Below, piece by piece: positions 4,578-59,015 of a DNA stretch of 64,000 nucleotides. This stretch comes from an uncultured Bacillota bacterium (GTDB lineage: Bacteria; Sysuimicrobiota; Sysuimicrobiia; Sysuimicrobiales; Segetimicrobiaceae): the NCBI GenBank assembly GCA_963804645.1, contig CAWDRG010000005.1:96001-160000 (forward strand), given 5' to 3'. How positions within the stretch are numbered: the stretch's first letter is position 1; each line of letters starts with the position of its first letter. The notes under the pieces are model-generated. The model was not told the origin of the DNA, made no database searches, and saw nothing but the letters and a program-made list of their open reading frames with translations. A program made the translations under genes and the position numbers.

Positions 4578-4608
4578 CGAGCCCTCCGTCCCGGCGGCGC
4601 CGATGCGC

Positions 4609-7302: not shown

Positions 7303-8246
7303 GCAGCCCTCCCCGGGCGCAGCCGGCGGTATCGCATATACACGGGCGACAGCCAGTTGAACGCTCCCGTGCCAAGGTAGCTCAAGGCGTACGCGGCGGC
7401 CATCCGGGGAGACCGCGACGCGTATGGTCTGAGGAGTTCCCGGCACCGGTCGGGGTGGCCAGCCTTCCACTCGGCCAGGGCACCCTGCCACGCAATCTTC
7501 TTTGTAAACGCGCGCACTTCTTCGACGTACTCGACGTCCAGTTCGGGGTACCGCGCCCGAAGCTTCTCAAGCAGCAGGGTGTTCTCCACGCTGAACAGAT
7601 CGTAGTGGGTGTGCGTCCAGCTCTGTTCGTGTACGCGCCACTTGGCCAGCGGCTCGTCGATGCAGTCAATCTCATAGTCATGGGCGAGACGGAGAAATAG
7701 ATCCTTCTCCTCAACCACGTTGAACCGTTCGTCGAACCATTCCGGCAGGCTCTCGAGCGCCTCCCGACGCACGACGACGGTCTCGAGCGAGAGGAAGTAA
7801 TCGCCCAGCAGCTCGCGGAATGCCATGCCCCGCGGCGGCTTGTGGCGCCCGTACACCGGACCCATTTCACGCTTCGCGTCGAAAAAGATCGTGTCGCAGT
7901 AGACGAACCCAAGCCGGGGCGAGCGGTCGAACACCGCCACCTGCTTCTCGAGCTTGCGCGGAAACCAGAGATCGTCGCTGTCCAAAAACGCGAGGTAACG
8001 ACCGCGGGCCTGCTGGATCGCGAGGTTCCTCGCCTTGCCGAGCGGGTGGGTCTCCCCGCTTCTGAAATATCGGACTCGATCTCCGTAACTCTTCGCAATC
8101 GTACCGGTCGCGTCGGTGGATGCGTTGTCCCAGAACACAACCTCCCAGTCCGTGTACGTCTGCGCGAGAACGCTGTCGAGTGCCTCGCGCAGGTAGGCTT
8201 CCCCGTTAAGGCAGTTCACGATCACGCTGACCTCAGGCGTGGGCAT
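7299..8246 (-). CDS. Family 2 glycosyltransferase
   Basis: VSVIVNCLNGEAYLREALDSV, WDNASTD, ARNLAI, AFLDSDDLW. Confidence 0.93.
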   Translation of the reverse strand: MPTPEVSVIVNCLNGEAYLREALDSVLAQTYTDWEVVFWDNASTDATGTIAKSYGDRVRYFRSGETHPLGKARNLAIQQARGRYLAFLDSDDLWFPRKLEKQVAVFDRSPRLGFVYCDTIFFDAKREMGPVYGRHKPPRGMAFRELLGDYFLSLETVVVRREALESLPEWFDERFNVVEEKDLFLRLAHDYEIDCIDEPLAKWRVHEQSWTHTHYDLFSVENTLLLEKLRARYPELDVEYVEEVRAFTKKIAWQGALAEWKAGHPDRCRELLRPYASRSPRMAAAYALSYLGTGAFNWLSPVYMRYRRLRPGRAA

Positions 8247-9372
8247 CCCGCCTCTCGGAGGCGCCCATGAACGACCGAATGATGTCGATGATGAGTGCGA
8301 CATCCTGATCGGCCAGCGCGCAGTGCAGCGGCAGCGTCAGCATCTCTCCGTAGACGGCCTCCGTCACCGGCAGCACCAACCCAGGCTCGCGGAAATACGG
8401 CTGCAGGTGATTCGGTACGTAGTTCACGCTGGTCTCGATGTCACGATCCTTCAACGCCTGCATGAGGGCGTCGCGCCGGCCGTCCAGCACGCGGATCACG
8501 TAAATGTGGGGAGCAGCATGCCGGTAATCGATCGTCAACGTCCGGATGCTGGGCACGTCGGCGAACGCCCGGTCGTAGCGCCGGCAGATCTCGCGGCGCC
8601 TCGCGATGAACGCGTCGACTTTCGTGAGCTGCGCAAGCCCGATCGCGGCGTTGATGTTGCTCATGTGGTACCTGAACCCGAGCTCCGAGACTTCGTACCG
8701 CCACCCGCGGCCCTTCCAGCCAGGCTCCGTCGGAGCCGGACGAACCATGGCGAGCGATCGCTTGCGGCGCATCCGGTCGGCCAGGGTCGGGTCGACGCAC
8801 ACCACTGCCCCGCCCTCCCCGCACGTGATGTTTTTGATCGAATCGAAACTGAAGCACGCGACATCACCGAAGCTCCCAATCTTCCGGCCGCGGTACACCG
8901 AACCGAACGCGTGCGCCGCGTCCTCAACAACCCGAATCCCAGCCCGTGTCGCGAACTCCATGATGCGATCCATGTCGCACGGATTCCCCGCGTAGTGGAC
9001 CGGCATCACCGCTTTGGTCCGGGACGTGAGCCGCCGCTCCACGTCTTCCAGATCGATCGCCAGCGTCTCGGGCACCACGTCGCAGGCGACCGGCGTGGCG
9101 CCGGTCGCCTTGACGGCCTGAAACGACGAGACAAACGTGAGCGACGGAAGCACAACTTCGTCGCCGGGACCCAGCCCGAGCGTGGCCAGTGCGAGGTGCA
9201 GCGCGGCGGTGCCGTTGCCGACGCAGACGACATGCTCTGCACCGAGAAACTCGCGAAGGCGGTCTTCGAATTCATTCACCTTCTCCGCGTGGCCGTAGTA
9301 GCCCCGGTCCAGGGCGGCCTTGACGGCCTCGTACTCCCCGTCTCCGACGACCGGCTGCGACACGCGGATCAT
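8233..9372 (-). CDS. DegT/DnrJ/EryC1/StrS family nucleotide-sugar aminotransferase
   Basis: GTAALHLAL, PVHYAG, VEDAAHAFG, FSFDSIKNITCGEGG, GFRYHMSNINAAIG. Confidence 0.94.
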   Translation of the reverse strand: MIRVSQPVVGDGEYEAVKAALDRGYYGHAEKVNEFEDRLREFLGAEHVVCVGNGTAALHLALATLGLGPGDEVVLPSLTFVSSFQAVKATGATPVACDVVPETLAIDLEDVERRLTSRTKAVMPVHYAGNPCDMDRIMEFATRAGIRVVEDAAHAFGSVYRGRKIGSFGDVACFSFDSIKNITCGEGGAVVCVDPTLADRMRRKRSLAMVRPAPTEPGWKGRGWRYEVSELGFRYHMSNINAAIGLAQLTKVDAFIARRREICRRYDRAFADVPSIRTLTIDYRHAAPHIYVIRVLDGRRDALMQALKDRDIETSVNYVPNHLQPYFREPGLVLPVTEAVYGEMLTLPLHCALADQDVALIIDIIRSFMGASERRDAHA

Positions 9373-11213
9373 GCGCTCGCGCCGACGCCTGTCATGGGCA
9401 GAAATACCTCCATATAGACCTCCGTGGGTGGGGCAAAAAAGCTCGACAACTCCATCGCGTCCGCGGGCGGAGTTCCCTTCGCGGACAGGACCTCAACCAA
9501 CCGGCGGGCAAGCGCATCCGGTGAGGACACCGCGGGCTCGAACTCCTCGAACCACGCCAGCGGATCCATGTCGAGCTGAGACTCGGGAGAGATCCGAACG
9601 ACGCGCTTGCCGGCCAGGGCCGCCTCGAGCACGGCTCCGGACGCCGCGCATACCACCACGTCGCTCTCCGCGAGCGCCTCCTCCATCGTACCGTCGACGA
9701 CACGCACGCGCGCACCGAGAGCCGCGACCACCCCGTCCGCGAGTTCACGGGCAAACGGATGCGGCTTCACGATGACCGCGGCGTTGGAGATGACCGCGAG
9801 CGCTGCGACAAACTTGTCAATCACCTCCGCCGTGCCGTCCCGCTTCGTCGTCAACACCAGGAGGACCCGGGGCGCGCCGCCGACGGACGACGGCGCACGG
9901 AACGACGGCACGGCTCCGCCGCGGTGAAGATAAGCATACCGCAGTGCCGCCCCCACGACAACCCGCTCGGGCGCGTACCCTTCGCGCACCAGGATGTCCC
10001 GGTACCGCACACCGTTGCAGACGATGCGATCTGGGAGCGGTGCAATGTCCCGCTCGTGGCGATCCGTATACCACGGCAGCACGTTGCGCTTCAGCGGGTT
10101 GTGGCAGAATCCGTATACCAGGGTGCGGGGCATGAAGCGGCGGACCCCGAGGATGGTAAGTTTGTCCGACACCATGTTCTCGAACGGCAGCACCATGAGC
10201 CGCGGGTGGATGCCGTCGCCCGCAAGACGCCGCATCAGCGGATAGTGCAGCGTGGACATCACCGACAGGGACTCGGTGCGGTTTGAAGCATCGAACAGCC
10301 GCGAGACATCGAGGCCGTGCAGCGTCGCCCCACGGAAGCGAAACGTTCGCTGCCGCGCCCACATGAGCGCGGGAAACGTCAGATCCCACAGGCGGAGATG
10401 CTCTTCGAGCACGATGCAGTCGGGAGACCGCCGCAGGCGCCGGATCATGGCCAAAAAGACTCGGAAGGGCTCAGCGATTGTGAGCACGGTCACGCACGAG
10501 AGCCGCTTCGACGCGTAGAGGGACGGGAGCAACGGCAGGTACCGGTCGTGGACGGATCCGGCCTGGTCGATACTCCCCTGGTCCACTCGCGTGCTCAACA
10601 GCACATCCGGGGTCGCGCTGCGCCGCGCTCCGCGGCCCCGCACGGCGACGACGGCGAGCCACCGAGCCAGGAGGGACGCACTCTTCCAGACCAGCGTCGC
10701 AAGGGGCCACAGCGACGAGTCGTGCAGACGCGGCCGGTGCCGTCCGGCGGTTCGGACTCGGTAGTTCCGTGCCCGGGCGAGATCGATGATCAAGGACCGC
10801 AGCGCCGGCGCATCACACACGATGCACACGCTGCGCCGCTCGTCCAGATACTGCCGCGCAAGCCACAGGTAGCAGCAATGGAGAAACAGATCGCTCCCGT
10901 TCGTGTTGCGCTCGGCGATGCCGCTCGCCCACCATGCCAGCGAGTCGTAGCGCCTGCCGAACATCGCCGTGAGTTCGAGAAAGGGCCGCCGCAGATCGTC
11001 TGCGGCGGCCCGCAGATCGGCATCGATGCGACGACGCACGGCGACTCCGTCCACTTCCGCCTCCAGGCGCACGAGGGTCCCGTACTCGGGGATCAGCGCG
11101 ATGACCTCGGCGATCCCGGCCCCATGCAGGACGGCCCGAAGATCCCGCGCCCCGGACGTCGCGAGGACTAGCGTCGGCGGGTCATCGTGGCTCTTCGCCG
11201 ACATCCCCGTCAT
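9369..11213 (-). CDS. Uncharacterised surface-carbohydrate biosynthesis protein with probable C-terminal GT-B-like fold
   Basis: 614 aa; PDRIVCNG, VVVGAALRY, IVKPHP, SDVVVCAASGAVLEAALAGKRV; ATGA-coupled to downstream gene. Confidence 0.65.
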   Translation of the reverse strand: MTGMSAKSHDDPPTLVLATSGARDLRAVLHGAGIAEVIALIPEYGTLVRLEAEVDGVAVRRRIDADLRAAADDLRRPFLELTAMFGRRYDSLAWWASGIAERNTNGSDLFLHCCYLWLARQYLDERRSVCIVCDAPALRSLIIDLARARNYRVRTAGRHRPRLHDSSLWPLATLVWKSASLLARWLAVVAVRGRGARRSATPDVLLSTRVDQGSIDQAGSVHDRYLPLLPSLYASKRLSCVTVLTIAEPFRVFLAMIRRLRRSPDCIVLEEHLRLWDLTFPALMWARQRTFRFRGATLHGLDVSRLFDASNRTESLSVMSTLHYPLMRRLAGDGIHPRLMVLPFENMVSDKLTILGVRRFMPRTLVYGFCHNPLKRNVLPWYTDRHERDIAPLPDRIVCNGVRYRDILVREGYAPERVVVGAALRYAYLHRGGAVPSFRAPSSVGGAPRVLLVLTTKRDGTAEVIDKFVAALAVISNAAVIVKPHPFARELADGVVAALGARVRVVDGTMEEALAESDVVVCAASGAVLEAALAGKRVVRISPESQLDMDPLAWFEEFEPAVSSPDALARRLVEVLSAKGTPPADAMELSSFFAPPTEVYMEVFLPMTGVGASA

Positions 11214-11259
11214 CCGCGGCGCACACGCACCGCGGCATGCCCCGACGGCGCCGTGCGCG

Positions 11260-12051
11260 TCACACGCGGCTCCAGATCACGGCGAGCTTCGGCGGCCGCA
11301 AGGGCAGCATCCCCGCAGCCGACGGCCGGAGTGTCTCGGTCACCCGAAACTCATCGTCGAACGTGACAAGCGTCTCGGGTCGTAGGCCCGCCCGGAGCCC
11401 AGGGCGCAGGTGCTCCCGCGTCGTACGCTTCCATCCCAATCGCACGACGCGGTGCGCGCGCACGTCCCCGCGTGCCTGAATCAGCGCGCGCTTGGCCAGC
11501 CCCCTGAAGATCCCCCCGAACGACAGGTTCGCCACGGTGATCATCACAGCGGCGCCGCCGGGCGCCAGCAGCCGCGCGGTCTCGTGCAGCAGGTCCTCGT
11601 AGCCCCGCCGGTCGTAGACGTGCTCGATCGCCGAGAGTACGACGACATCGAACGTACCAGGAGGCGCATCGACGTGTCGGGCGTCCCCGATGTACACCGG
11701 CGCCTCCGGATGCGCCTCGCGGAACGGCCCCAGCGAAGAAGCTTGGCACTCCTGCACCGAAACCCGGTAGCCGTGCTCAAGCCACACCTGCTCCATCGTC
11801 CCCAGCCCCGCACCCAGCGAGAGCACGGTGCCTCCGGGCGCACCGGCACCTGGTCGGGATCGCAGCACCGCAGTCTCGATCCACGCTGCAAGATTCAACC
11901 GCGCACACACCCACGCGGGGTCGAGGGAAATCCCCCCGGCGAGAAGCCGATCGTAGAACGCGCCGTAGAATGCCGCGGCCCCGTCGGGGACAGCGGGAAT
12001 GCCATCAAAAGGAATCCCGTGCCACTCGCCCTCGAAGCTCTCGATCTCCAT
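11260..12051 (-). CDS. Class I SAM-dependent methyltransferase
   Basis: VLSLGAGLG motif I, GDARHV, FDVVVLSAIEHV, RLLAPGG. Confidence 0.85.
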   Translation of the reverse strand: MEIESFEGEWHGIPFDGIPAVPDGAAAFYGAFYDRLLAGGISLDPAWVCARLNLAAWIETAVLRSRPGAGAPGGTVLSLGAGLGTMEQVWLEHGYRVSVQECQASSLGPFREAHPEAPVYIGDARHVDAPPGTFDVVVLSAIEHVYDRRGYEDLLHETARLLAPGGAAVMITVANLSFGGIFRGLAKRALIQARGDVRAHRVVRLGWKRTTREHLRPGLRAGLRPETLVTFDDEFRVTETLRPSAAGMLPLRPPKLAVIWSRV

Positions 12052-12093
12052 GCCCGCCCACCGCCGACTCCGGACGCCTCGGCCCGCCGCCGT

Positions 12094-12963
12094 TCAGACC
12101 GGCATCGTGCGCTTGGTGTGCAACCGTCCGATCTCGGCCGCCTTCGGGTCATACGCGCGGCAGAATTTCAGCCCGCGGTCGATCTGCGCCTTGATGTCCT
12201 CCGGGGTCACAATCGTCAGAAACGAGATTCCGGCGTCCGCGCACGCCTTCCAGACGCGGTCGAGATCAGCCTGCAGGTCGGGAGGCAGGGGCACCGGCCG
12301 CTTTCGGTATCCCTGCTCCATCGACTGGTCGCCGGCCCCCCACTCGCCAAACGCGATCCCGGGCACCCGCGCGCTCACTTCACAGTTCACGAGCGCGCGC
12401 GCATTCTCCATCTTGATTCCCAGCAGGAGCTCCCCGTTCGGGTTGAGCGGCCACACGTCGGCCTTCTCCATATACTCGTCCTCGGAGATGCCCCACACCT
12501 TCGAGGCCATCCCCTGCCCCCCATGGCCCCGCCGGCCCTTGCCGAGTCCGCGGCCGACCCCGAGCGATTGAAATACGTATCGCGCTGATTCCACGTAGGC
12601 GCGGACCGCCCCCGGCGTCTCCGCGTGACAGAGGATCAATCCATGAACGCCCTGGGCGAGCGCCTGTTTGATCATCCACGCGTTGCTGTACACGACGTAC
12701 TCATCGATGCCGTCGAACGGCAATTCCGCGATCACCGCGGGGGTGCGGTGGCCGCTGCGCGTCGGCCCGCCGTCGATCAGTCCCTGCATGAATGTCCCGA
12801 GTGCGGTCATGTCGAACGGTCCGTGCTCGGAGTCAATGCGGATGTAGTCCGCCCACGTCTTGGCCATGGCAACGCCGCTCTCGTGGGTCAGCACGTGCGT
12901 ACTTGTGTAGTAGACCGGCTGCCCCCGCTCCAGCAGCTCGATCGCCCGGTTTACCCGCGCCAT
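12094..12963 (-). CDS. HpcH/HpaI (GarL-like) class II pyruvate aldolase family protein
   Basis: YIRIDSEHGP (DxEH), GIKMENARAL, WGAGDQS metal-binding region; GGAGG RBS. Confidence 0.8.
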   Translation of the reverse strand: MARVNRAIELLERGQPVYYTSTHVLTHESGVAMAKTWADYIRIDSEHGPFDMTALGTFMQGLIDGGPTRSGHRTPAVIAELPFDGIDEYVVYSNAWMIKQALAQGVHGLILCHAETPGAVRAYVESARYVFQSLGVGRGLGKGRRGHGGQGMASKVWGISEDEYMEKADVWPLNPNGELLLGIKMENARALVNCEVSARVPGIAFGEWGAGDQSMEQGYRKRPVPLPPDLQADLDRVWKACADAGISFLTIVTPEDIKAQIDRGLKFCRAYDPKAAEIGRLHTKRTMPV

Positions 12964-12982
12964 TGATTGAACCTCCCGAGTC

Positions 12983-14194
12983 TCAGGACGGTCGACGCCC
13001 GTTCCGCGATGCCGATGCCGCCCGCCGCGCGATTCCTGGGGCGGCTCTCACGACGGCGCGCTCCAGTCGATCGCGGATGATCGCGGCGGACAACTCGCCC
13101 GGCCGGACCCTGCCGTCGCAGGCGATGACCTCGTCGTAGAACGGCGCCCGGAAGCCGGGTTCCACGGTCCCGACCACGGCCACCACGCGGCGCCCCAAGC
13201 GCTTGGCGACCGCCCCCGCGTGAGCCGGCCCCTTCGACAGCAGGGTCGTGCGGTCGAGACGGCCTTCCCCGATGATTACGACGTCGTGACGTTTGATCCA
13301 TGCCGCGAGGCCGATCTCCCGCTCAACCAGCTCGGCGCCGTGCACCAGCGTCGCCCCCAGAAATCCCAACAGCCCCGCACCCAACCCGCCCGCCGCCCCG
13401 GCCAGCGGAACGTCGACGCGGCGACCGGTCTGTCGGCGTAACACCCGCGCGAGGTTGGCAAATCCCGCGTCGAGGTAGGCGATCTCCGAGACGCTGGCAC
13501 CCTTCTGCGGCCCGAATGAGCGCGCCTGCCCCCGCGGGCCCAGGAGCGGGATATCCGCATCCGACGCGACGACGATCTCCGGGACGCCCTGGGACACCTT
13601 GAGGCGATCCAGGCGCACCCCGGCGATGTCGACCAAACTCAGCGCGTTGAACCCGGGAGTCCCGATGGGGCGCAGTACGGCACCGCGCCGGTCAAGGAAC
13701 TCAACGCCCAGGGCCTGCGCCATGCCGATCCCCATGTCGCTGACGATGGACCCGCCCAGCCCGACGATGACGCGGCGGTACCCGCGGGCGACCGCGGCGA
13801 GAATGAGCTCGCCCACGCCGTAGGACGTCGCCACCATCGTCTGCCGTTCGTGGGGGCGCAGGAGCCTCCACCCGGCCGCCTCGGAGATCTCGATGACGGC
13901 AGCCGCCGGCGTGCCGTCGAGCAGCCCGAGGCGCGCACGCCGCGGGCGAAACAGCGGATCGTGCGCGGACACCTCCACCACGCGTCCGCCCCGCGCGGAC
14001 ACCAGGACCTCGATCGTCCCATCGCCGCCGTCGGCCATGGGTGCGATTTCGATCGCGAACCGCTCGCTGCCGCGGCGGAGCCCGCGTGCGATGCTTCTGG
14101 ACGCCTCGCCCGGCGAGAGGTACCCTTTGTGGCCGCAGCTCGCGATCAGCGCGCGCACGCTGCCCCCGGGCGTGCGCGCAGCCCCTACCGGCAT
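12983..14194 (-). CDS. Glycerate kinase (GlxK/GarK class), divergent
   Basis: PMADGGDGT, VGLGGS, FGPQKGA, GAAGGLG, GEGRLD; N-terminal IASCGHKG replaces usual IAPDSFKG. Confidence 0.9.
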   Translation of the reverse strand: MPVGAARTPGGSVRALIASCGHKGYLSPGEASRSIARGLRRGSERFAIEIAPMADGGDGTIEVLVSARGGRVVEVSAHDPLFRPRRARLGLLDGTPAAAVIEISEAAGWRLLRPHERQTMVATSYGVGELILAAVARGYRRVIVGLGGSIVSDMGIGMAQALGVEFLDRRGAVLRPIGTPGFNALSLVDIAGVRLDRLKVSQGVPEIVVASDADIPLLGPRGQARSFGPQKGASVSEIAYLDAGFANLARVLRRQTGRRVDVPLAGAAGGLGAGLLGFLGATLVHGAELVEREIGLAAWIKRHDVVIIGEGRLDRTTLLSKGPAHAGAVAKRLGRRVVAVVGTVEPGFRAPFYDEVIACDGRVRPGELSAAIIRDRLERAVVRAAPGIARRAASASRNGRRPS

Positions 14195-14230
14195 GGCGAA
14201 CCCCCGCGTCGCGGCGCAGCACGCAAGCCG

Positions 14231-15295
14231 TTACTCCGCATCGAGCCGGGCCAGACGCGAGACGATATCTACCACGCGGGACCCGTACCCCCATTCGTTG
14301 TCGTACCACAGCACGAGCTTGAGCTGCGCGTCTCCGTGCACCATCGTCCACCGGTGGTCGACCACCGCGGAGTGCTCAACCCCGGCAAAATCGACGGACA
14401 CCAGCGCCTGGTAGTTGTTCGCGATGACGGGGTACGCCTGCGTACGCTCCGCCGCCTCGAACACGCCGATCACGTCGTCTCGGGACGCGTCCCGAGACAG
14501 TTTCACCGTGAGATCGGCGGACGACACGATCGTGGTCGGCACCCGATACGACAGCGACACAAACTTGCGGTCGATGCCGGGCAGCACCTTGGCCGACGCC
14601 CGCAGGCATGAGGTCGTCTTTGGGATCAGCGACAGCGTGCTCGCGCGCCCCAGCGCATAAGCGGAGTGGATGCTGCCGGGGTCCGAAAACGAAAACGACG
14701 GGCCGTCCAGCAGCCGCTGGTAGCTGAGCCACGGGTGCAGAGTGGTCAGGGAGCCGTACTCGATCCCGAAGTGACGTTCCAACAGCAGCGCCACAGGCGC
14801 GAATGCCGCCGCATCGCAGATGCTGGCCGAGAGCACGAAATCGCCGCGCCGGATGTCGGTCTCGTTCACCCCGAAGATGACAAACCGGTCGACGAACTGT
14901 TCGTCTGGCGCGTTGGTCACGACGCAGTGCCGCACGCCCTGATCAGCCAGCCGGCGCAGCGCGGGCAGGTTGTGCTCGATCCCGGACGCGTCGATCACCA
15001 GATCGACGGCGTCGGCCTTCCACGGCACCGCGTCAATCTCGTGGTGTCGTGATACGCGGATCGAAGGCGCGCGCTCGACCGCGAGCGTATCGGGCCCTTC
15101 TACCCGTACGTCGCGCGCGAGCCGCCCGTATGTCGAGTCGTACTTCAACAGGTAGGCGACGTTGCCGAGATCCGGGTTGATGTCATTGACGGCCACCAGA
15201 TCGAACACGTCCCGCTCGAGGTTGATCCGGGCGATCGCGCGTCCGATCCGGCCGAACCCGTTAATGCCGATGCGCATCCGCATGCCGGCGGCCAC
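14231..15295 (-). CDS. Divergent GAPDH/erythrose-4-phosphate dehydrogenase family protein
   Basis: GINGFGRIGR, YLLKYDSTYG, YRVPT, WYDNEWGY; active site SASICDAAA instead of SNASCTTNC. Confidence 0.9.
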   Translation of the reverse strand: MAAGMRMRIGINGFGRIGRAIARINLERDVFDLVAVNDINPDLGNVAYLLKYDSTYGRLARDVRVEGPDTLAVERAPSIRVSRHHEIDAVPWKADAVDLVIDASGIEHNLPALRRLADQGVRHCVVTNAPDEQFVDRFVIFGVNETDIRRGDFVLSASICDAAAFAPVALLLERHFGIEYGSLTTLHPWLSYQRLLDGPSFSFSDPGSIHSAYALGRASTLSLIPKTTSCLRASAKVLPGIDRKFVSLSYRVPTTIVSSADLTVKLSRDASRDDVIGVFEAAERTQAYPVIANNYQALVSVDFAGVEHSAVVDHRWTMVHGDAQLKLVLWYDNEWGYGSRVVDIVSRLARLDAE

Positions 15296-15298
15296 GGC

Positions 15299-16288
15299 CT
15301 ACTCACCACCCTCGGGCCCATAGTCGACCACCCCGTACAGGGGCGGCTCGCCGCGGGCGGCCCGCGCGACGTTCGCCGCCACGTGCTGCACCATCCGAAA
15401 CCGCGATTCGTGGCTCGGCCCGGCGTGCGGCGACAGCGCCACGTTGTCGAGCGCGAGCAGCGGAGAGTCCCGCCGAGGAGGCTCCGCCTCAAACACGTCG
15501 AGCCCGGCACCTCGCAACCGACGCTCGGTGAGCGCCTCGTACAGCGCCTCTTCGTCGACGATGCCTCCGCGCGCTGCATTGATCAAGACGGCCGTCGGTT
15601 TCATCCACCCGAGCGAGTCGCGGTTGATCATGTGCCGCGTCCGGGACGTCAGCGGAACATGGAGGGTCAGCACATCGGACGCCCGCACCAGGTGCTCGAA
15701 CGGGCACGCCTCAAGCGCGTGCGCCCGCACGAACTCGGGATCCGCCGGGCGAATGTCGTCGTACAGGACGCGCATCCCAAATGCGCTGGCGCGGACCGCG
15801 ACCGCACGCCCGACATGCCCGAGCCCCACGATCCCCATCGTCTTGTCGAGGAGTTCAATGTTCTCGTGCTTCCGATTGACCCACGATCCGTCGACGACGG
15901 TCGCATGATGAAACCGCTGGTGACGAAACAGTGTGAGTGCCAGCAAAAATACGTGCTCCGCCACAGAGACGGCGTTCGACCCCCCGTTGTTGGCGACGAT
16001 CACCCCGTGACGCGCCGCACGCGCAAGGTCGATCTGTTCGTACCCGGCAATCGGCAGCTGAAACAGTTTGAGACGAGGCGCGCGCCGGTATTGGTCGTCC
16101 GTCAGGTCGACGCGCGAGATAACGCAGTCCGCGCGAGCTAACAACTCGGAAAGATTGTCCGGAGGCGAGGTAAAATCCACCCGCAGCCACTCGCACCGCG
16201 GGTCACCCAATTCACGCAACTGATTCTTGAAGCTGTCATAGACATCGGCCGACGTCAGGACGACAAACGCGTCGTCACGCGCCGGCAT
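15299..16288 (-). CDS. D-isomer-specific 2-hydroxyacid dehydrogenase (SerA/PdxB/glycerate dehydrogenase family)
   Basis: NAVSVAEH, GIVGLGHVG, INAARGG, DVFEAEP, SPHAG (Arg/Glu/His triad). Confidence 0.93.
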   Translation of the reverse strand: MPARDDAFVVLTSADVYDSFKNQLRELGDPRCEWLRVDFTSPPDNLSELLARADCVISRVDLTDDQYRRAPRLKLFQLPIAGYEQIDLARAARHGVIVANNGGSNAVSVAEHVFLLALTLFRHQRFHHATVVDGSWVNRKHENIELLDKTMGIVGLGHVGRAVAVRASAFGMRVLYDDIRPADPEFVRAHALEACPFEHLVRASDVLTLHVPLTSRTRHMINRDSLGWMKPTAVLINAARGGIVDEEALYEALTERRLRGAGLDVFEAEPPRRDSPLLALDNVALSPHAGPSHESRFRMVQHVAANVARAARGEPPLYGVVDYGPEGGE

Positions 16289-17018
16289 GGTTTTTCGTGG
16301 AAGCCGCGCGCCCGCTCAGGATCGTCTCGATGAACAGCATCTGGTGCGGGTCGTCGACGTCGATCGCTCGCTCTGGCGGCACGATGTACGGGATCGGCCG
16401 CCGCCCGATCAAATTGGTCTGCGTTTTGAGCTCGCCGACCGTGTTGAAAATGATCGCAAAGTTGGCGCGGTACATTCGACGATGGTCGTTGTGCCGCGTC
16501 GACCGCCGGTAGTCTTCGGGGAACACTGGGTCGAGGCGGTTATCCTCCGCAATGTTCAGCGCCAGCTGGATAGGGTACTCGTAACTGGTCACGCTGACCA
16601 CGGGCGTCGCCCCGCCCTGCTCTCGGAACAGTTGATACGCTCCCTGGATGTCCTGCGCCGTCCGCAACGGGCACGTCGGAAACAAGACCCCAAGTACCGT
16701 GTCGTCGGACCACTCAAGCGCGCGGATCATCTCCTGGATGATCTCGATGATATACGTGGTGTCGCTCGCCAACTCGGGGGGCCGCAGATAGGTGTCGGCA
16801 CCGTACGAACGAGCCACGGCGAGTATCTCGTCATCCTCGGAATTCACGATGACTCCTTCGAACACACCGCTTTGCAGGGCCGTCTCGATAGTGTACGCGA
16901 TCAGGGGCTTGCCGTTGACCAAGATCAGGTTCTTGTGGGGGACCCGCTTCGACCCGCGTCTGGCGGGGATGAACGCGTGGACAGCCGCCTTCCCACCGCT
17001 GTCCCCACGAACCCCCAT
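16275..17018 (-). CDS. Acylneuraminate/CMP-ulosonate cytidylyltransferase (NeuA/KdsB family)
   Basis: FIPARRGSKRVPHKN, GKPLIAYTI, RPPELASD, PTCPLR, AIDVDD; AGGAGG upstream of ATG 17018. Confidence 0.9.
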   Translation of the reverse strand: MGVRGDSGGKAAVHAFIPARRGSKRVPHKNLILVNGKPLIAYTIETALQSGVFEGVIVNSEDDEILAVARSYGADTYLRPPELASDTTYIIEIIQEMIRALEWSDDTVLGVLFPTCPLRTAQDIQGAYQLFREQGGATPVVSVTSYEYPIQLALNIAEDNRLDPVFPEDYRRSTRHNDHRRMYRANFAIIFNTVGELKTQTNLIGRRPIPYIVPPERAIDVDDPHQMLFIETILSGRAASTKNHAGA

Positions 17019-17244
17019 CCTCGTCCTCCTGACGCGGTGTTCCTCCACTGACCCTCACGGGGTTATCGGACTCACCAACGGCGCCGCGCGCGCGCCGATC
17101 AGTCGCGGTGCCCGATATTCGACAGATAGTAAGGAAGCCCCTCCGCGCACGCCGCAGCGCGCGGTGCATCGGGGTCGACGACGACGCGACGCGCGGCAAC
17201 CGTGCATCCCGAGCGACGCGCGTATACCTGTGCACGCTGCTCGA

Positions 17245-18777
17245 TTACGGCCCACCGCGGACGGGTTCGGCGCGCCCGCGGCGGCCGATCCACCGCAGCA
17301 GATCGGCGCTGCTCCCCGTCACCCAAACGCCCGCTACAATCAACGGGGCGAGCACGATCAGAGTACCGAGCGCTACGGCTGCGGAGTGCACCAGGTCCGC
17401 TTCCCACCCAACCCGTTCACCCCCGGCACGACCAAACAGCCAGAGCACGCCGGCCGTCCAGCCGGAGGCGCACGCGGCCTGCAACAACACCTTCCACGAC
17501 GTCTTGATCCCCCAAATTTCCCGCCCGGCGGAAAACACCATATACACAAAATACAATGCGTAGCCGATGACTGTGCCCACCGCCACGTCGCGCAGCGTGA
17601 CGCGGCCGAGGACAAACCACATCAGGGCGATCGACCCGCCAGTCGCCAGCACCCCGAACAAGTTCGAGAGACCGTAGGAGACGAGACGCTTATCGGCGAG
17701 CCACAGCACGTAGATGTTGTTGTTGTTCGAGATGAAAAATGAACAGAGCAGCAGCACCAACAGGACCGGCACGCTGTCGCTGTACAGCGGCGTGATGTGG
17801 CGGATCAGAAACGGCGCCGCCGCCGCGACCGCCCAGGACACGAGCGGGATCGACACAAATAACTGAAACTGCATGAATCGCAGCATGTCTTTCCCGATCT
17901 TCTCCCGACCGACTCCCTCTCCATGCTGCATCAGCGTGCGCGTCGACAGCACGGTGCCCATGCGGGTCGTGACATCCGAAGCTTGGGAGTAGAAGCTTTT
18001 CGCGAGGGCGTACAGTGCGAGCGGCCCGAGCCCAAGCAGCCGGGAAACCCACAACACGTCGAGCGACAGAAAGAACACCTGCGGGTAGTCCGCCATCCGA
18101 AAGCCGATTCCGTACGACACCAGGCGCTTCCACATTCGCGTGTCGAACATCCACGCCGTCGTGAGCCCCGCCCGGTTGCCCGCAAGGTAACTCCAGAGCC
18201 CGCGACACAGCTCGGCCACAATCGCCGCCACCAGGAGTCCCGGCAGGCCGGCCGCGTACGCTCCCACAGGGAGCGCGACCGCATACAGGACCGTGGTCAC
18301 CAGCAGCACACGGCTGAGGGCGACATAGAGTTGGGCGCCCTGGAAGAACGTGATGTAGGCTTCCTGGACCTTGCCGAGGATGACCAGCACGCCTGTCACG
18401 ACGAGCGCCGCGACCTTCAGGCGGTCAAAGGTTGCCAGATGCCAGTAGGTGTACGCCCACAGCCCCACCGCCAGCACGGCCGCTTCCACGAGCGAGAACC
18501 AAAGCGCGACGGAGCGGCAGCTGACCTCTTCGGCGGGTTCGTTCCGCCCTTTCAGAATCGAAAGTTCCCGCAACGCCCCCGCCAGCGCGCCGAGCGTGAT
18601 CGGCTGCACATACCCGCGCGCGAGGACAACAAAGTTCCAGGTGCCCATCACCTCCGGGGGCAGCAGACGGCGCACGGCGAACCCGGAGAGAAACGTCACC
18701 ACCTGTGCGAGCACGTTCGTCCCGCTGTACGCGGCGGCGCTCTTCATGACGAGCCGGCGGGCCCGCGACGTCACCAT
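17245..18777 (-). CDS. wzx: Wzx-type oligosaccharide flippase
   Basis: About 12-14 TM helices; VRRLLPPEVMGTW and RLLGLGPLALYALA repeats typical of MOP/PST flippases. Confidence 0.78.
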   Translation of the reverse strand: MVTSRARRLVMKSAAAYSGTNVLAQVVTFLSGFAVRRLLPPEVMGTWNFVVLARGYVQPITLGALAGALRELSILKGRNEPAEEVSCRSVALWFSLVEAAVLAVGLWAYTYWHLATFDRLKVAALVVTGVLVILGKVQEAYITFFQGAQLYVALSRVLLVTTVLYAVALPVGAYAAGLPGLLVAAIVAELCRGLWSYLAGNRAGLTTAWMFDTRMWKRLVSYGIGFRMADYPQVFFLSLDVLWVSRLLGLGPLALYALAKSFYSQASDVTTRMGTVLSTRTLMQHGEGVGREKIGKDMLRFMQFQLFVSIPLVSWAVAAAAPFLIRHITPLYSDSVPVLLVLLLCSFFISNNNNIYVLWLADKRLVSYGLSNLFGVLATGGSIALMWFVLGRVTLRDVAVGTVIGYALYFVYMVFSAGREIWGIKTSWKVLLQAACASGWTAGVLWLFGRAGGERVGWEADLVHSAAVALGTLIVLAPLIVAGVWVTGSSADLLRWIGRRGRAEPVRGGP

Positions 18778-18853
18778 GGTCGTGCCGGCGGCACAACGCG
18801 CCAATAAGCGGCGAACGAAGTACGCGGAGAACGGCGGGGCAGCGCGCGCACGC

Positions 18854-19297
18854 CTACCCCGGAGACCACGGGGCGGGCATCGTCGCGTCAAACGGGTCGA
18901 GGCGTTCCACCTCGCCCGCATCGTATGGTAGGTCTGTGCAGTTCGCTACGAGGGCGTGCCGGTCTCCGAGCGCCTGGAAGCCGTACCAGATGCCGGGCGG
19001 GATCTGGATCAGCAGATACGCGGCTTCGCCCACCTCCAGCACCTGGGTCACCCCTCGCGTGGCCGAATCGGCCCGCGTGTCGTGAAGGCAGAATCGCACC
19101 GTGCCGATCGGCACCGTTAGCTGCTGCACGATCCGGCGGTGCCGCCGCCATGCTTTCACGGCGCCCGGGTTCGTCAGCGAAAAATACACCTCGCCGAACC
19201 CCCGGAACAGCGGGGAATCCGACCGAAGCATGTGCATGATTTTGCCGCGGGCGTCGGCGATCTGCGTGAGTGGTTGGACCACGACGTCGTGAATCAC
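18854..19297 (-). CDS. NDP-4-keto-6-deoxyhexose 3,5-epimerase (RmlC-like cupin)
   Basis: DARGKIMHMLR, FGEVYFS, VKAWRRH, IPPGIWYGFQ; GTGA coupling to rfbG. Confidence 0.9.
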   Translation of the reverse strand: MIHDVVVQPLTQIADARGKIMHMLRSDSPLFRGFGEVYFSLTNPGAVKAWRRHRRIVQQLTVPIGTVRFCLHDTRADSATRGVTQVLEVGEAAYLLIQIPPGIWYGFQALGDRHALVANCTDLPYDAGEVERLDPFDATMPAPWSPG

Positions 19298-25969: not shown

Positions 25970-26188
25970 GCTAGCCTCCCGCACCGAGCCGCTCGGAGGG
26001 GCGCGGAATCGGCCGCCCGCACGGCGCGCGCCATCGGCGATGTTTGGGGACCCGCACCGACCGCGATCGTCCGCCCATCACGTCTCCCTCTCCGGATTCG
26101 CATCGAGGCGAGCACACTACGACGCCGCCCACGGACGCTTCGTCGAGGTGCTGCGATGCCCCTGGGGACAGTCGGGCCGCCGACGACG

Positions 26189-28319: not shown

Positions 28320-28368
28320 GACGCCCACCTCCCTACCGCTCAGGATCGGTCACGAACACGACCGGCGC

Positions 28369-29052: not shown

Positions 29053-29055
29053 CGG

Positions 29056-32243: not shown

Positions 32244-32279
32244 CACGCCGACACCCATGCGGGCGCGACCCGCTCGCGC

Positions 32280-58858: not shown

Positions 58859-59015
58859 GGGTGACTCCTCCCGCGCGAGTTGCGCGCTCACCCGATAAAA
58901 CGCCGAGCGCGAGCAAACCGTTCCCGGTGCCAATTCGGACCCGTGTGTTGACACGCATAGGACGCGGAGGAATCCGTCGGTGTACGGCATCGTGCACAAC
59001 TCTATGAGCGCACCG

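What the first reader, a model, noticed from the sequence alone, without database searches (positions are those of the whole stretch)
9369..17018. Candidate new pathway: central-metabolism paralogues that may build and CMP-activate an unusual ulosonic acid
Seen: a tightly packed same-strand run of CMP-ulosonate cytidylyltransferase, D-2-hydroxyacid dehydrogenase, GAPDH-like enzyme, glycerate kinase, HpcH/GarL aldolase, methyltransferase and an orphan GT-B-like protein, sitting between a flippase and GTs. Known: HpcH/GarL aldolases reversibly join pyruvate to aldehydes to give 3-deoxy-2-keto acids, which is the substrate class NeuA/KdsB enzymes activate; a GAPDH paralogue plus 2-hydroxyacid dehydrogenase recalls Epd/PdxB. 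Inference: the cassette makes a C3/C4 aldehyde, condenses it with pyruvate without NeuB/KdsA, activates it with CTP and transfers it to the glycan (e.g. a 3-deoxy-hept/hexulosaric-type sugar). An alternative is supply of a glyceroyl-type substituent. I do not know a characterised pathway with this gene set.
Basis: partly seen in the sequence, partly recalled or inferred. Interest (0 to 1): 0.85.

Follow-up and report, generated by a model that had tools for sequence, protein, structure and literature searches.

The report
Conserved cassette for an unknown CMP-activated acid sugar
Inside a large surface-sugar gene cluster sits a tightly packed set of genes, copies of ordinary sugar-burning enzymes joined to a sugar-activating enzyme and a sugar-attaching enzyme, that recurs in very distant microbes and probably makes a still unidentified acidic building block for the cell surface.

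Summary
The gene run is real. Seven minus-strand genes (9369-17048) sit -14 to +46 bp apart: a NeuA/PseF-like cytidylyltransferase, a D-2-hydroxyacid dehydrogenase, a GAPDH-family enzyme, a glycerate kinase, an HpcH-fold protein, a methyltransferase and a 614-aa GT-B protein.

The five-gene core recurs in the same order in three other full loci with 31-37% GC, plus one short contig that lacks only the cytidylyltransferase. All lie in glycan loci, none in glucarate or glycerate catabolic operons. It was not found in the 93 other genomes searched in this phylum.

The cytidylyltransferase forms a discrete orthologue group. The GAPDH-like enzyme keeps Cys/His but has changed four residues at its phosphate sites, and a canonical gap lies elsewhere in the genome.

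A complete PseB/C/H/G/I pathway with NeuB and two more cytidylyltransferases lies 6-15 kb away. The "orphan" GT-B protein belongs to a large family.

Best reading (0.4): a self-contained module that builds a 2-keto acid sugar with the aldolase, activates it with CMP and transfers it. Rivals are a module that modifies pseudaminic acid, or one that adds a phospho-hydroxyacid decoration. The product is unknown, and four searches of the held paper library found no description of the gene set.

The parts
16275..17048 (-). Cassette cytidylyltransferase (CT1), NeuA/PseF-like. The likely true start is near 17018, giving 247 aa.
   Evidence: PF02348 scores 73 bits. PseF TIGR03584 scores 161.8 bits (cut-off 205.7) and matches over the whole model. 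The best solved relatives are NeuA chains at E 8e-22 to 6e-21, against KdsB at E 1e-9 or weaker. It forms a discrete orthologue group: 37 listed hits at 51-100% identity, then the next at 42%.
15299..16288 (-). D-2-hydroxyacid dehydrogenase of the PGDH / glyoxylate-hydroxypyruvate reductase type. Its start overlaps the CT1 stop by 14 bp.
   Evidence: PF02826 scores 199 bits. PGDH TIGR01327 scores 220 bits, below its 454 cut-off. Best solved relatives are glyoxylate reductase 5aov (E 1e-49) and PGDH 1wwk (E 4e-47). The homologues in L001, L091 and L105 are 49-52% identical.
14231..15295 (-). Divergent GAPDH-family aldehyde dehydrogenase. The catalytic Cys and His are kept, but the phosphate sites are altered.
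   Evidence: Gp_dh_N and Gp_dh_C hits. GAPDH-I TIGR01534 scores 243 bits, below its 367 cut-off. It carries the motif SASICDAAA where canonical enzymes have SNASCTTN, TTLHPWLSYQ where they have TTVHAYTNSQ, and an insertion of 7-10 residues. It is 36-37% identical to the genome's canonical gap.
12983..14194 (-). Glycerate-kinase-family kinase (PF02595). It is the only copy found in the genome.
   Evidence: PF02595 scores 314 bits. TIGR00045 scores 281 bits, above its 168 cut-off. tblastn found no second copy at E<1e-5. The homologues in L001, L091 and L105 are 47-55% identical.
12094..12963 (-). Divergent HpcH/HpaI-fold protein, read as a class II, metal-dependent 2-keto-acid aldolase.
   Evidence: The model has pLDDT 93.4. 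Foldseek matches HpcH/HpaI, GarL-type 1dxe, YfaU and the hydroxypyruvate aldolase SwHKA. A profile of the family finds YfaU at E 1.4e-8, with the positions I take from memory to be the aldolase metal-ligand Glu and Asp aligned. The cassette copies are 59-66% identical.
11260..12051 (-). Class I SAM methyltransferase, a tailoring gene. It is not part of the conserved core.
   Evidence: Methyltransf_25/11/23 at E 3e-8 to 1e-6. Among the 81 loci compared, tblastn found it only in L089, the near-identical contig. Other cassettes carry a radical SAM/SPASM gene or a weak UbiG-like gene instead.
9369..11213 (-). 614-aa GT-B-fold protein, the presumed transferase for the activated product. It is weakly related to the LIC13510 family.
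   Evidence: TIGR04326 scores 75 bits against a 250 cut-off. The model has pLDDT 92.1 with GT-B over residues ~200-612. A family HMM scores the L001 neighbour at 549 bits and the L091 neighbour at 65 bits. In the ESM Atlas, three of the 30 nearest clusters have members carrying PF04464 (58% in one cluster) or PF05159 (30-42% in the three).
17245..18921 (-). Context: a 558-aa membrane protein with about 10 hydrophobic segments.
   Evidence: No Pfam or NCBIfam match even at E<=1. Hydropathy scan.
8233..9372 (-). Context: a DegT/PseC-like aminotransferase whose start overlaps the GT-B gene by 4 bp.
   Evidence: PF01041 scores 373 bits. PseC TIGR03588 scores 328 bits, below its 423.5 cut-off.
23347..32258 (-). 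Context: the NeuB-dependent pseudaminic acid gene set (PseH-PseG fusion, NeuB/PseI, PseC, PseB). It also holds two more CTP_transf_3 genes, a GSA-aminomutase-like gene and a GFO/IDH/MocA gene.
   Evidence: PseB scores 531 bits and PseC 461 bits, both over their cut-offs. PseG scores 166 bits, over its cut-off. NeuB PF03102 scores 268 bits. The cytidylyltransferase at 28369-29052 scores 131 bits on the PseF model.

Best explanation
The cassette is a self-contained, horizontally mobile module. It makes a 2-keto (ulosonic-type) acid sugar, activates it with CMP, and transfers it to the surface glycan.

Proposed order of steps (all inferred; none shown by experiment):
1. The GAPDH-like enzyme oxidises a non-phosphorylated 2-hydroxy-aldehyde (glyceraldehyde-like) to the acid without using phosphate.
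2. The glycerate-kinase homologue phosphorylates that acid.
3. The PGDH-like 2-hydroxyacid dehydrogenase oxidises it to a phosphorylated 2-keto acid (phosphohydroxypyruvate-like). Alternatively, steps 1-3 furnish the aldehyde partner while pyruvate acts as donor.
4. The HpcH-fold aldolase makes the C-C bond with an aldehyde.
5. A HAD-like phosphatase removes the phosphate. That gene is present in the other cassettes but absent here.
6. The dedicated NeuA/PseF-like enzyme makes the CMP-sugar.
7. The GT-B protein transfers it.
8. The methyltransferase (a radical-SAM enzyme in other cassettes) tailors it.

What the data show: the gene families, their order, their co-conservation, and the altered active site of the GAPDH-like enzyme.
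For: 1. The core is ordered and co-conserved. Among 81 loci compared, CT-HADH-GAPDH-like-kinase-HpcH-like occurs in L001, L089, L091 and L105. L089 is 97-100% identical to the window, so it is not independent. L090 is a 2.8-kb contig that carries the last four genes. The L001, L091 and L105 proteins are 47-66% identical to the window's, although those loci have 31-37% GC against ~68% here.
2. Fifteen further contigs are implied by identical 'longest contig' lengths shared between the three hit lists. They include Endothiovibrio diazotrophicus and a Heimdallarchaeaceae MAG.
3. The cytidylyltransferase is a discrete orthologue group. The 37 best hits are 51-100% identical and the next is 42%. 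It is NeuA-like over its full length, and the N-terminal nucleotide-binding loop and the C-terminal Asp-x-Asp of 1eyr align with identical or conserved residues. I recall those motifs as catalytic; no call checked that.
4. A GT-B family member follows the cassette in the window, L001 and L091, which is 3 of the 4 lineages with full loci.
5. L091 and L105 show no NeuB, PseB or PseC within the 8-10 kb held on each side. There the aldolase is the only candidate C-C bond former for the cytidylyltransferase's substrate.
6. Both genomes that do have NeuB also have another cytidylyltransferase next to it, so the cassette's enzyme is an extra one.
7. The HpcH-like protein has the class II aldolase fold, and the Glu and Asp that I take to be the metal ligands align.
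8. The GAPDH-like enzyme keeps Cys149, His176 and Arg231 but has S148I, T150D, T179L and R195L. This fits an unphosphorylated substrate and no phosphate acceptor. The residue roles are recalled from the GAPDH literature.
9. The module is sporadic. It occurs in 1 of 94 genomes of this phylum and 1 of 88 in the L001 phylum, as expected for a swappable glycan module.
Against: - No product is known and no assay was possible.
- The window holds a complete NeuB-dependent Pse pathway, and CT1 is the most PseF-like of its three cytidylyltransferases (161.8 against 131.1 bits, with the third not matching). CT1 could therefore simply activate a Pse derivative.
- L001 has NeuB about 13 kb upstream.
- If the C3 unit is ordinary phosphoglycerate, dedicated GAPDH-like and kinase genes would be redundant with glycolysis.
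- An equivalent of the catalytic Arg of HpaI-type aldolases (recalled as Arg70) could not be located, because that region does not align.
- The wider HpcH-like family (>7000 hits at ~60% identity) lives in other contexts. Of 80 genome loci, 79 lack the cassette.
- The same GAPDH-like subfamily occurs in many marine loci with NTP transferases, kinases and CDP-alcohol-phosphotransferase-like genes and no aldolase. That points to a phospho-acid decoration rather than a sugar.
- This window lacks the HAD-like gene.
Confidence: 0.4

Rival explanations
1. The cassette modifies a nonulosonic acid. CT1 is the CMP-synthetase for a modified pseudaminic-type sugar made by the neighbouring NeuB pathway, and the GT-B protein is its transferase. 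The four central-metabolism paralogues, plus the methyltransferase, supply or install a C3 hydroxy-acid substituent such as an (O-methyl)glyceroyl or lactyl group. One possible route runs through the acyl-enzyme of the GAPDH-like protein.
For: - CT1 is the most PseF-like cytidylyltransferase in the window and in the L001 genome, at 162 and 156 bits.
- Complete Pse genes lie 6-15 kb away here, and NeuB plus a PseB-like gene lie ~13 kb upstream in L001.
- N-glyceroyl and 2,3-di-O-methylglyceroyl Pse exist in nature. Their genetic basis in Tannerella forsythia is stated to be unknown in passages read from PMC5378307 and PMC6120980.
- Passages of the SugarBase preprint report CMP-linked di-O-methylglyceroyl nonulosonates in Campylobacter jejuni.
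- The T150D change sits at the site that normally binds phosphate, so it could favour an amine acceptor. This is inference only.
Against: - The T. forsythia glycosylation cluster that makes Pse5Am7Gra is described with no GAPDH-, glycerate-kinase- or HpcH-like genes (passages only).
- L091 and L105 have no NeuB or Pse genes within 8-10 kb.
- This reading gives the aldolase no role.
- A second PseF-like cytidylyltransferase already sits within the Pse operon.
Confidence: 0.27
2. The cassette adds a phospho-hydroxyacid decoration. An aldehyde is oxidised to glycerate or a related acid, phosphorylated, joined to a cytidine nucleotide, and transferred as a phosphodiester-linked substituent by a TagF-like GT-B enzyme. 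This is the same logic as CDP-glycerol or CDP-ribitol.
For: - In the 78 loci where the GAPDH-like gene was called as an ORF, its commonest neighbours within 7 kb are: an NTP_transferase (38 loci), a HAD-like protein (21), a PF02595 kinase (10), a 2-phosphoglycerate-kinase-like P-loop kinase (11; PRK04220 at 77 bits), a CDP-alcohol-phosphotransferase-like protein (11) and GT2-CDP-OH-P-transferase fusions (13).
- The GT-B protein's Atlas neighbours include clusters in which 58% of members carry the TagF family PF04464.
- TarL with CDP-ribitol aligns at Z 11.6.
Against: - CT1 belongs to the NeuA/KdsB family, and all its solved relatives make CMP-ulosonates rather than CDP-alcohols.
- The 2-hydroxyacid dehydrogenase and the aldolase, both core genes, have no role in this reading.
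- The structural matches to GT-B proteins do not discriminate. The WaaA CMP-Kdo-binding domain scores Z 12.5.
Confidence: 0.15
3. The cassette is ordinary catabolism or salvage: a glucarate/glycerate-type or non-phosphorylative Entner-Doudoroff-type operon (aldolase, aldehyde dehydrogenase, glycerate kinase) that merely lies next to glycan genes.
For: Aldolase plus aldehyde dehydrogenase plus glycerate kinase is the enzyme logic of the lower non-phosphorylative ED branch and of GarL/GarK (recalled, not checked here). The wider HpcH-like family neighbours GFO/IDH/MocA oxidoreductases, sugar-isomerase-like barrels and solute-binding proteins.
Against: - In the three independent full loci the genes are flanked by, and in operon-like order with, a cytidylyltransferase and glycosyltransferases.
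- No dehydratase, GarR-type reductase or transporter of those pathways accompanies them.
- The cytidylyltransferase orthologue group appears with them on the same contigs, by locus content and by contig-length coincidence.
Confidence: 0.03

Closest known systems
NeuB-dependent CMP-pseudaminic acid pathway (PseB, C, H, G, I, F)
   Same: Both end in a NeuA/PseF-family cytidylyltransferase followed by a dedicated transferase. The cassette lies in the same locus as a full Pse gene set.
   Different: The cassette itself has no NeuB-type PEP-dependent synthase. It carries an HpcH-fold aldolase instead. Its cytidylyltransferase falls below the PseF cut-off and forms its own orthologue group.
Kdo pathway (KdsA synthase, KdsC HAD phosphatase, KdsB CMP-Kdo synthetase) (recalled)
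   Same: The logic matches the proposal: condensation to a phosphorylated 2-keto-3-deoxy acid, dephosphorylation by a HAD phosphatase, then CMP activation. HAD-like genes are present in L001, L091 and L105.
   Different: CT1 is closer to NeuA (E ~1e-21) than to KdsB (E 1e-9 or weaker). The condensing enzyme has a different fold and would use a keto acid rather than PEP. No HAD gene is present in this window.
GarL/GarR/GarK lower glucarate pathway and the non-phosphorylative Entner-Doudoroff branch (recalled)
   Same: Both combine an HpcH-family or KDG aldolase, oxidation or reduction of a C3 aldehyde, and a glycerate kinase. The GarL-type structure 1dxe matches the model.
   Different: The context is biosynthetic and glycan-related, not catabolic. 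The aldehyde dehydrogenase is a GAPDH paralogue. A cytidylyltransferase and a GT-B protein are part of the unit.
   Same: A GAPDH paralogue is followed by a D-2-hydroxyacid dehydrogenase. The E4PD models score 202 bits and PdxB scores 115 bits.
   Different: All these scores are far below the cut-offs. The phosphate-site residues are replaced by Ile, Asp and Leu, which argues against a phosphorylated substrate.
Central-metabolism paralogues in phosphonate pathways (dehydrophos DhpB/DhpC; valinophos vlpABCDE)
   Same: Glycerate-kinase-like and PGDH-like enzymes act one after the other on a glycerate analogue. This is recalled: only the existence of a vlpABCDE core and the VlpB dehydrogenase was seen, in passages of PMC8942020. 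Five or six of the GAPDH-like loci lie directly beside PEP mutase, Ppd and Fe-ADH genes.
   Different: There is no PEP mutase in this window or in the other cassette loci.

Membership tests
PseF, CMP-pseudaminic acid synthetase (TIGR03584) | Score at or above the curated equivalog cut-off (205.7 bits) | tested here: not met
   CT1 scores 161.8 bits and the L001 orthologue 156.2 bits.
PseF, CMP-pseudaminic acid synthetase (TIGR03584) | NeuA/KdsB-type cytidylyltransferase fold, with the N-terminal nucleotide-binding loop and the C-terminal Asp-x-Asp (motif roles recalled) | tested here: met
   PF02348 scores 73 bits. The full-length alignment to NeuA 1eyr and 9ftb aligns PARRGSKRVPHKN and IDVDD with the corresponding NeuA segments.
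PseF, CMP-pseudaminic acid synthetase (TIGR03584) | Activates pseudaminic acid | not testable with these tools
   This needs an enzyme assay.
Phosphorylating type I GAPDH (TIGR01534) | Score at or above the curated cut-off (367 bits) | tested here: not met
   The cassette enzyme scores 243 bits. On Gp_dh_C, the genome's canonical gap scores 190 bits against 103 bits here.
Phosphorylating type I GAPDH (TIGR01534) | Catalytic Cys149 and His176 (numbering recalled) | tested here: met
   Both are invariant in the subfamily alignment.
Phosphorylating type I GAPDH (TIGR01534) | Substrate-phosphate and inorganic-phosphate site residues Ser148, Thr150, Thr179 and Arg195 (roles recalled) | tested here: not met
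   They are replaced by Ile, Asp, Leu and Leu in the window and across the subfamily. Arg231 is kept.
HpcH/HpaI class II pyruvate aldolases (PF03328) | TIM-barrel fold of the family | tested here: met
   The model has pLDDT 93.4. Foldseek probability is 1.0 against 4mf4, HpaI, HpcH, 1dxe, YfaU and SwHKA.
HpcH/HpaI class II pyruvate aldolases (PF03328) | Pfam gathering score (25 bits) | tested here: not met
   The window protein scores 20.5 bits. The orthologues in L001 and L091 score 30.4 and that in L105 scores 28.7, all of which pass.
HpcH/HpaI class II pyruvate aldolases (PF03328) | Metal-ligand Glu and Asp (roles recalled) | tested here: met
   E186 (K-x-E-N) and D212 (G-D) are invariant in the 17-sequence alignment. 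They align with a Glu and an Asp of YfaU and HpaI in the profile alignment.
HpcH/HpaI class II pyruvate aldolases (PF03328) | Catalytic Arg (Arg70 of HpaI; recalled) | tested here: inconclusive
   The region does not align in the sequence or profile searches. The corresponding strand reads VIAELP, with no invariant Arg.
Glycerate kinase (PF02595 / TIGR00045) | Score above the curated cut-offs | tested here: met
   314 bits on Pfam. 281 bits against the 168 cut-off on TIGR00045. The E. coli equivalog models are not reached: 202 and 192 bits against cut-offs of 625 and 686.
D-3-phosphoglycerate dehydrogenase (TIGR01327) | Score at or above the equivalog cut-off (454 bits) | tested here: not met
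   220 bits. This is the best-scoring model, but glyoxylate/hydroxypyruvate reductase models score nearly the same.
GarLRK glucarate catabolic operon | Operon with glucarate/galactarate dehydratase, GarR-type reductase and transporter | tested here: not met
   None of these occurs next to the cassette in the window, L001, L091 or L105.
LIC13510-type surface carbohydrate biosynthesis protein (TIGR04326) | Score at or above the cut-off (250 bits) | tested here: not met
   The window protein scores 75 bits and the L001 protein 86 bits.
KpsC/KpsS (PF05159) or TagF (PF04464) GT-B transferases | Direct family match | tested here: inconclusive
   There is no Pfam hit at E<=1 apart from DUF6716 at 17 bits. 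These families appear only in related Atlas clusters. The structural matches are to GT-B proteins in general.

The most novel reading that the evidence does not exclude
The cassette is a NeuB-independent route to a previously undescribed CMP-activated ulosonic acid. A phosphohydroxypyruvate- or hydroxypyruvate-type donor is made by a repurposed, non-phosphorylating GAPDH paralogue, a glycerate-kinase homologue and a PGDH-like enzyme. A class II aldolase joins this donor to a sugar aldehyde, which in this window could be the 6-deoxy-hexose of the Pse pathway. The product would be a 3-hydroxylated ('Ko-like') or dicarboxylic higher ulosonic acid, used by both bacteria and archaea.
Probability: 0.15. 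Interest if true: 0.9.

Novelty: new variant of a known kind. Interest (0 to 1): 0.66.

Why it matters
CMP-activated acidic sugars (sialic, pseudaminic and legionaminic acids, Kdo) cap microbial surfaces and govern recognition by phages and hosts. All known routes to them use PEP-dependent NeuB- or KdsA-type synthases.

A conserved, mobile cassette that couples an aldolase and three re-tooled glycolysis or serine-pathway paralogues to its own cytidylyltransferase would add either a new route or a new class of modification. It would also give a function to a GAPDH subfamily that has lost its phosphate sites.

The idea is directly testable. Express five to seven genes and look for a new CMP-linked alpha-keto acid. 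It may also help explain unassigned CMP-linked keto acids now being seen by mass spectrometry, such as those reported in passages of the SugarBase preprint.

Tried and rejected
- Relatives: none of 40 genus, family or order relatives has a GAPDH match above 39% identity. None of the 93 other genomes of the phylum has the HpcH-like protein at E<=1e-80. None of the 87 other genomes of the L001 phylum has the cassette-type GAPDH at E<=1e-95. These searches therefore gave no further complete genomes in which to test NeuB co-occurrence.
- The Nitrospinota MAG behind L002 has a 64%-identical HpcH-like gene but only a canonical gap (37%), and it does have NeuB. It is either not a cassette or too fragmented to tell.
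- The plasmid collection gave no match to the GAPDH-like protein at E<=1e-60.
- Neighbourhoods of the wider HpcH-like family gave no consistent partner that would name its substrate. Contexts vary: GFO/IDH/MocA, xylose-isomerase-like barrels, solute-binding proteins. An RraA-like neighbour appears in 37 of 80 loci, but these are mostly closely related Poribacteria.
- The aldolase catalytic Arg could not be located by single-sequence or profile searches against solved structures.
- Structure searches could not tell a CMP-ulosonate transferase from a CDP-alcohol phosphotransferase for the GT-B protein.
- Literature: four searches pairing nonulosonic or pseudaminic acid, O-antigen or polysaccharide terms with glycerate-related terms, glycerate kinase, cytidylyltransferase, aldolase or GAPDH found no description of this gene set. 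The searches for dehydrophos/DhpB found nothing in the held library, and the valinophos search found only one survey, so those analogies rest on recall.
- I considered a private serine-type pathway (kinase, then PGDH-like, then aminotransferase, then HAD). I rejected it because the adjacent aminotransferase is a DegT sugar type and is not conserved beside the cassette in L091 or L105.

Full report
**What is there.** The window has about 68% GC, and almost all of its genes lie on the minus strand. Between 9369 and 17048 lie seven genes separated by -14 to +46 bp. The last one overlaps the following aminotransferase gene by 4 bp.

Pfam and NCBIfam assign the genes as follows:
- A CTP_transf_3 cytidylyltransferase (CT1). 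Its best model is PseF at 161.8 bits, below the 205.7 cut-off.
- A D-2-hydroxyacid dehydrogenase. Its best model is PGDH at 220 bits, below cut-off, with glyoxylate/hydroxypyruvate reductase models nearly as good.
- A two-domain GAPDH-family protein (243 bits, cut-off 367).
- A glycerate-kinase-family protein (281 bits, cut-off 168).
- A weak HpcH/HpaI hit (20.5 bits).
- A class I methyltransferase.
- A 614-aa protein with no Pfam family.

Structure prediction settles the two doubtful genes. The HpcH-like model (pLDDT 93.4) matches HpcH/HpaI, the GarL-type aldolase 1dxe, YfaU and the hydroxypyruvate-using aldolase SwHKA. The 614-aa model (pLDDT 92.1) has a generic GT-B fold over residues ~200-612 preceded by an extra N-terminal domain.

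**Corrections to the observation.**
- The GT-B protein is not an orphan. 2118 representative proteins match it at E<=0.001.
- The 'flippase' upstream is a protein with about ten hydrophobic segments and no family match.
- Most importantly, the same strand carries a complete pseudaminic acid gene set 6-15 kb away: PseB (531 bits), PseC (461 bits), a PseH-PseG fusion and NeuB/PseI. It also carries two more CTP_transf_3 genes, one of which scores 131 bits on the PseF model.
- The rest of the window holds glycosyltransferases, a Wzy_C protein, an LptA-like protein and an MsbA-like exporter. It looks like a large O-antigen-type locus.

**Is the cassette a unit?** Yes.
- A scan of one genome per species with the HpcH-like family returned 80 loci. 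Only one of them (L001, a MAG with 37% GC) had the neighbours, and it had all of them, in the same order.
- A metagenome scan with motifs specific to the GAPDH-like subfamily returned 80 more loci. The full core CT-dehydrogenase-GAPDH-like-kinase-HpcH-like was present in L089 (97-100% identical to the window, so not independent), L091 (37% GC) and L105 (31% GC). Four of the five genes were on the 2.8-kb contig L090.
- The L001, L091 and L105 proteins are 47-66% identical to the window's.
- In L001, L091 and L105 a weakly HAD-like 250-aa gene sits between the GAPDH-like gene and the kinase. A radical-SAM/SPASM gene (L001, L105) or a weakly UbiG-like gene (L091) replaces the window's methyltransferase.
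- A member of the GT-B family follows the cassette in L001 (549 bits on a family HMM) and in L091 (65 bits), but not in the part of L105 that is held.
- CT1 has a sharply bounded orthologue group. The 37 best hits are 51-100% identical and the next is 42%.
- Fifteen of those hits share an identical 'longest contig' length with hits of the GAPDH-like or HpcH-like searches. They include Endothiovibrio diazotrophicus and a Heimdallarchaeaceae MAG. This is indirect evidence of co-location.
- The cassette is sporadic. It was not found in 40 close relatives, in the other 93 genomes of the phylum or in the other 87 of the L001 phylum. That pattern suits a horizontally exchanged glycan module.

**The individual enzymes.**
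- *GAPDH-like enzyme.* The genome has a canonical gap on contig C22 with the SNASCTTN and TTVHAYTNSQ motifs. The cassette enzyme and its subfamily keep the catalytic Cys and His and Arg231. They replace Ser148, Thr150, Thr179 and Arg195 by Ile, Asp, Leu and Leu, and carry an insertion after the His. I recall those four residues as the ligands of the substrate phosphate and of inorganic phosphate. If that is right, the enzyme most likely oxidises an unphosphorylated aldehyde without phosphorolysis. NCBI records name its relatives simply 'aldehyde dehydrogenase'.
- *HpcH-like protein.* It belongs to a very large and strongly conserved family, with more than 7000 hits and ~60% identity across phyla. 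It keeps the Glu and Asp that align with the positions I take, from memory, to be the aldolase metal ligands. The equivalent of the catalytic Arg could not be located. Outside the cassette this family lives in varied contexts that do not name a substrate.
- *CT1.* It aligns over its full length with NeuA structures (E ~1e-21), far better than with KdsB (E 1e-9 or weaker). The segments matching the NeuA nucleotide-binding loop and the Asp-x-Asp are conserved.

**What it most likely does.** The enzyme classes can be arranged so that each one's product is the next one's substrate class:
1. aldehyde to 2-hydroxy acid (GAPDH-like);
2. to phospho-acid (kinase);
3. to phospho-2-keto acid (PGDH-like dehydrogenase);
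4. to C-C bond formation on a 2-keto acid (class II aldolase);
5. to dephosphorylation (HAD-like, where present);
6. to a CMP-ester (NeuA-like enzyme);
7. to transfer (GT-B);
8. to tailoring (methyltransferase or radical SAM).

Arguments for a self-contained pathway:
- The cassette has its own cytidylyltransferase lineage and usually its own transferase.
- In L091 and L105 no NeuB, PseB or PseC lies within the 8-10 kb held on either side.
- In both genomes that do have NeuB, another cytidylyltransferase sits beside it.

I give this reading 0.4. Every chemical step is inference. Only the families, their order, their conservation and the residue changes are shown.

**Rivals.**
1. *The cassette serves the Pse pathway (0.27).* CT1 is the most PseF-like enzyme in both NeuB-containing genomes. 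N-glyceroyl and di-O-methylglyceroyl Pse are known, and the passages read state that no gene has been found for the glyceroyl group in Tannerella forsythia (PMC5378307 and PMC6120980). Against this, the T. forsythia cluster as described has no such genes, and the aldolase is left without a role.
2. *A phospho-hydroxyacid decoration (0.15).* The GAPDH-like gene was called as an ORF in 78 of the 81 loci. In those 78 its commonest neighbours are an NTP transferase (38), a HAD-like protein (21), either a PF02595 kinase (10) or a 2-phosphoglycerate-kinase-like kinase (11), and CDP-alcohol-phosphotransferase-like proteins (11, plus 13 GT2 fusions). This suggests the sequence aldehyde, acid, phospho-acid, NDP-acid, phosphodiester. 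Against it, CT1 is of the CMP-ulosonate type, and the dehydrogenase and aldolase are unexplained.
3. *A catabolic operon that happens to lie here (0.03).* The conserved link to the cytidylyltransferase and to glycosyltransferases contradicts this.

**Comparison with what is known.** The logic resembles the Kdo and sialic-acid pathways: condensation, phosphatase, CMP activation. The enzyme set resembles GarL/GarK and the lower non-phosphorylative Entner-Doudoroff branch. The pairing of a GAPDH paralogue with a 2-hydroxyacid dehydrogenase recalls Epd/PdxB. The kinase-dehydrogenase pair recalls dehydrophos biosynthesis, which I recall but could not check in the held library. The cassette is a member of none of these. 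The curated cut-offs for PseF, GAPDH-I, PGDH and TIGR04326 are all missed, the phosphate-site residues of GAPDH are not met, and no catabolic partners are present.

Four full-text searches found no paper describing this gene set. Supplements were not consulted. Passages of a 2026 preprint report unassigned CMP-linked alpha-keto acids in Magnetospirillum. That shows such products exist, but nothing here links them to this cassette.

**Verdict.** This is a real, conserved, mobile and uncharacterised biosynthetic cassette embedded in a pseudaminic-acid-containing surface-glycan locus. It overlooked the nearby NeuB pathway, and the product remains unknown. I rate it a new variant of a known kind (biosynthesis of nucleotide-activated acidic sugars or substituents), with interest 0.66.

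Noticed in passing
window 23347-32258 (-): A complete pseudaminic acid gene set: PseB, PseC, a PseH-PseG fusion protein of 549 aa, and NeuB/PseI. Two further CTP_transf_3 genes lie at 26189-27127 and 28369-29052. A GSA-aminomutase-like aminotransferase (PRK06209, 557 bits) and a GFO/IDH/MocA oxidoreductase are also present. The window therefore holds three cytidylyltransferases but only one NeuB.
   Followed up: partly
loci L092-L168 (metagenome contigs): The GAPDH subfamily with altered phosphate sites sits in many, mostly marine, glycan loci. Its neighbours there are an NTP transferase, a HAD-like protein, a PF02595 kinase or a 2-phosphoglycerate-kinase-like kinase, CDP-alcohol-phosphotransferase-like proteins, AsnB-like amidotransferases and DHQS-like proteins. 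This looks like a module for a nucleotide-activated hydroxy-acid phosphate, similar in logic to lactaldehyde, lactate, 2-phospholactate and its guanylyl ester in F420 synthesis (recalled).
   Followed up: partly
L113, L121, L124, L126, L141 (and L118/L119 with a sulfatase-family gene): In these loci the same GAPDH-like gene lies directly after PEP mutase, phosphonopyruvate decarboxylase and an Fe-alcohol dehydrogenase. That places it inside phosphonate-decoration gene sets.
   Followed up: no
L003-L080 (genome contigs): The HpcH-like family is very common and about 60% conserved in Poribacteria and SAR202/Dehalococcoidia MAGs. There it lacks the cassette and often sits beside an RraA-like aldolase/decarboxylase gene (37 of 80 loci, many from close relatives). 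Its substrate in those organisms is unknown.
   Followed up: partly
window 2754-5706 (-) and L001 15113-18309: Downstream of the cassette, both the window and L001 carry a polysaccharide deacetylase, a FemAB/GNAT-like domain and a degenerate DegT-like domain. In L001 the DegT-like and FemAB-like parts are fused into one 712-aa protein. This hints at a larger conserved locus that may add an amino acid to an amino sugar.
   Followed up: no
window 21311-23350 (-): A 679-aa protein with weak matches to the LIC12162 and BFO_1060 transferase families, and a remote match (E 2e-6) to the cassette GT-B family HMM. It lies next to the PseH-PseG gene and is a candidate pseudaminic acid transferase.
   Followed up: partly
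window 56232-58997 (-): A 921-aa fusion of a homocysteine S-methyltransferase domain and a methylenetetrahydrofolate reductase domain.
   Followed up: no
L170 1528-2937 and 17636-18676 (genome G041, upstream of the L001 cassette): The related locus also holds a B12-binding radical SAM protein (HpnJ/BchE-like) and a malate/L-lactate-dehydrogenase-2-family enzyme (ureidoglycolate or sulfolactate dehydrogenase-like). They sit between NeuB and the cassette, so further hydroxy-acid chemistry may occur there.
   Followed up: no
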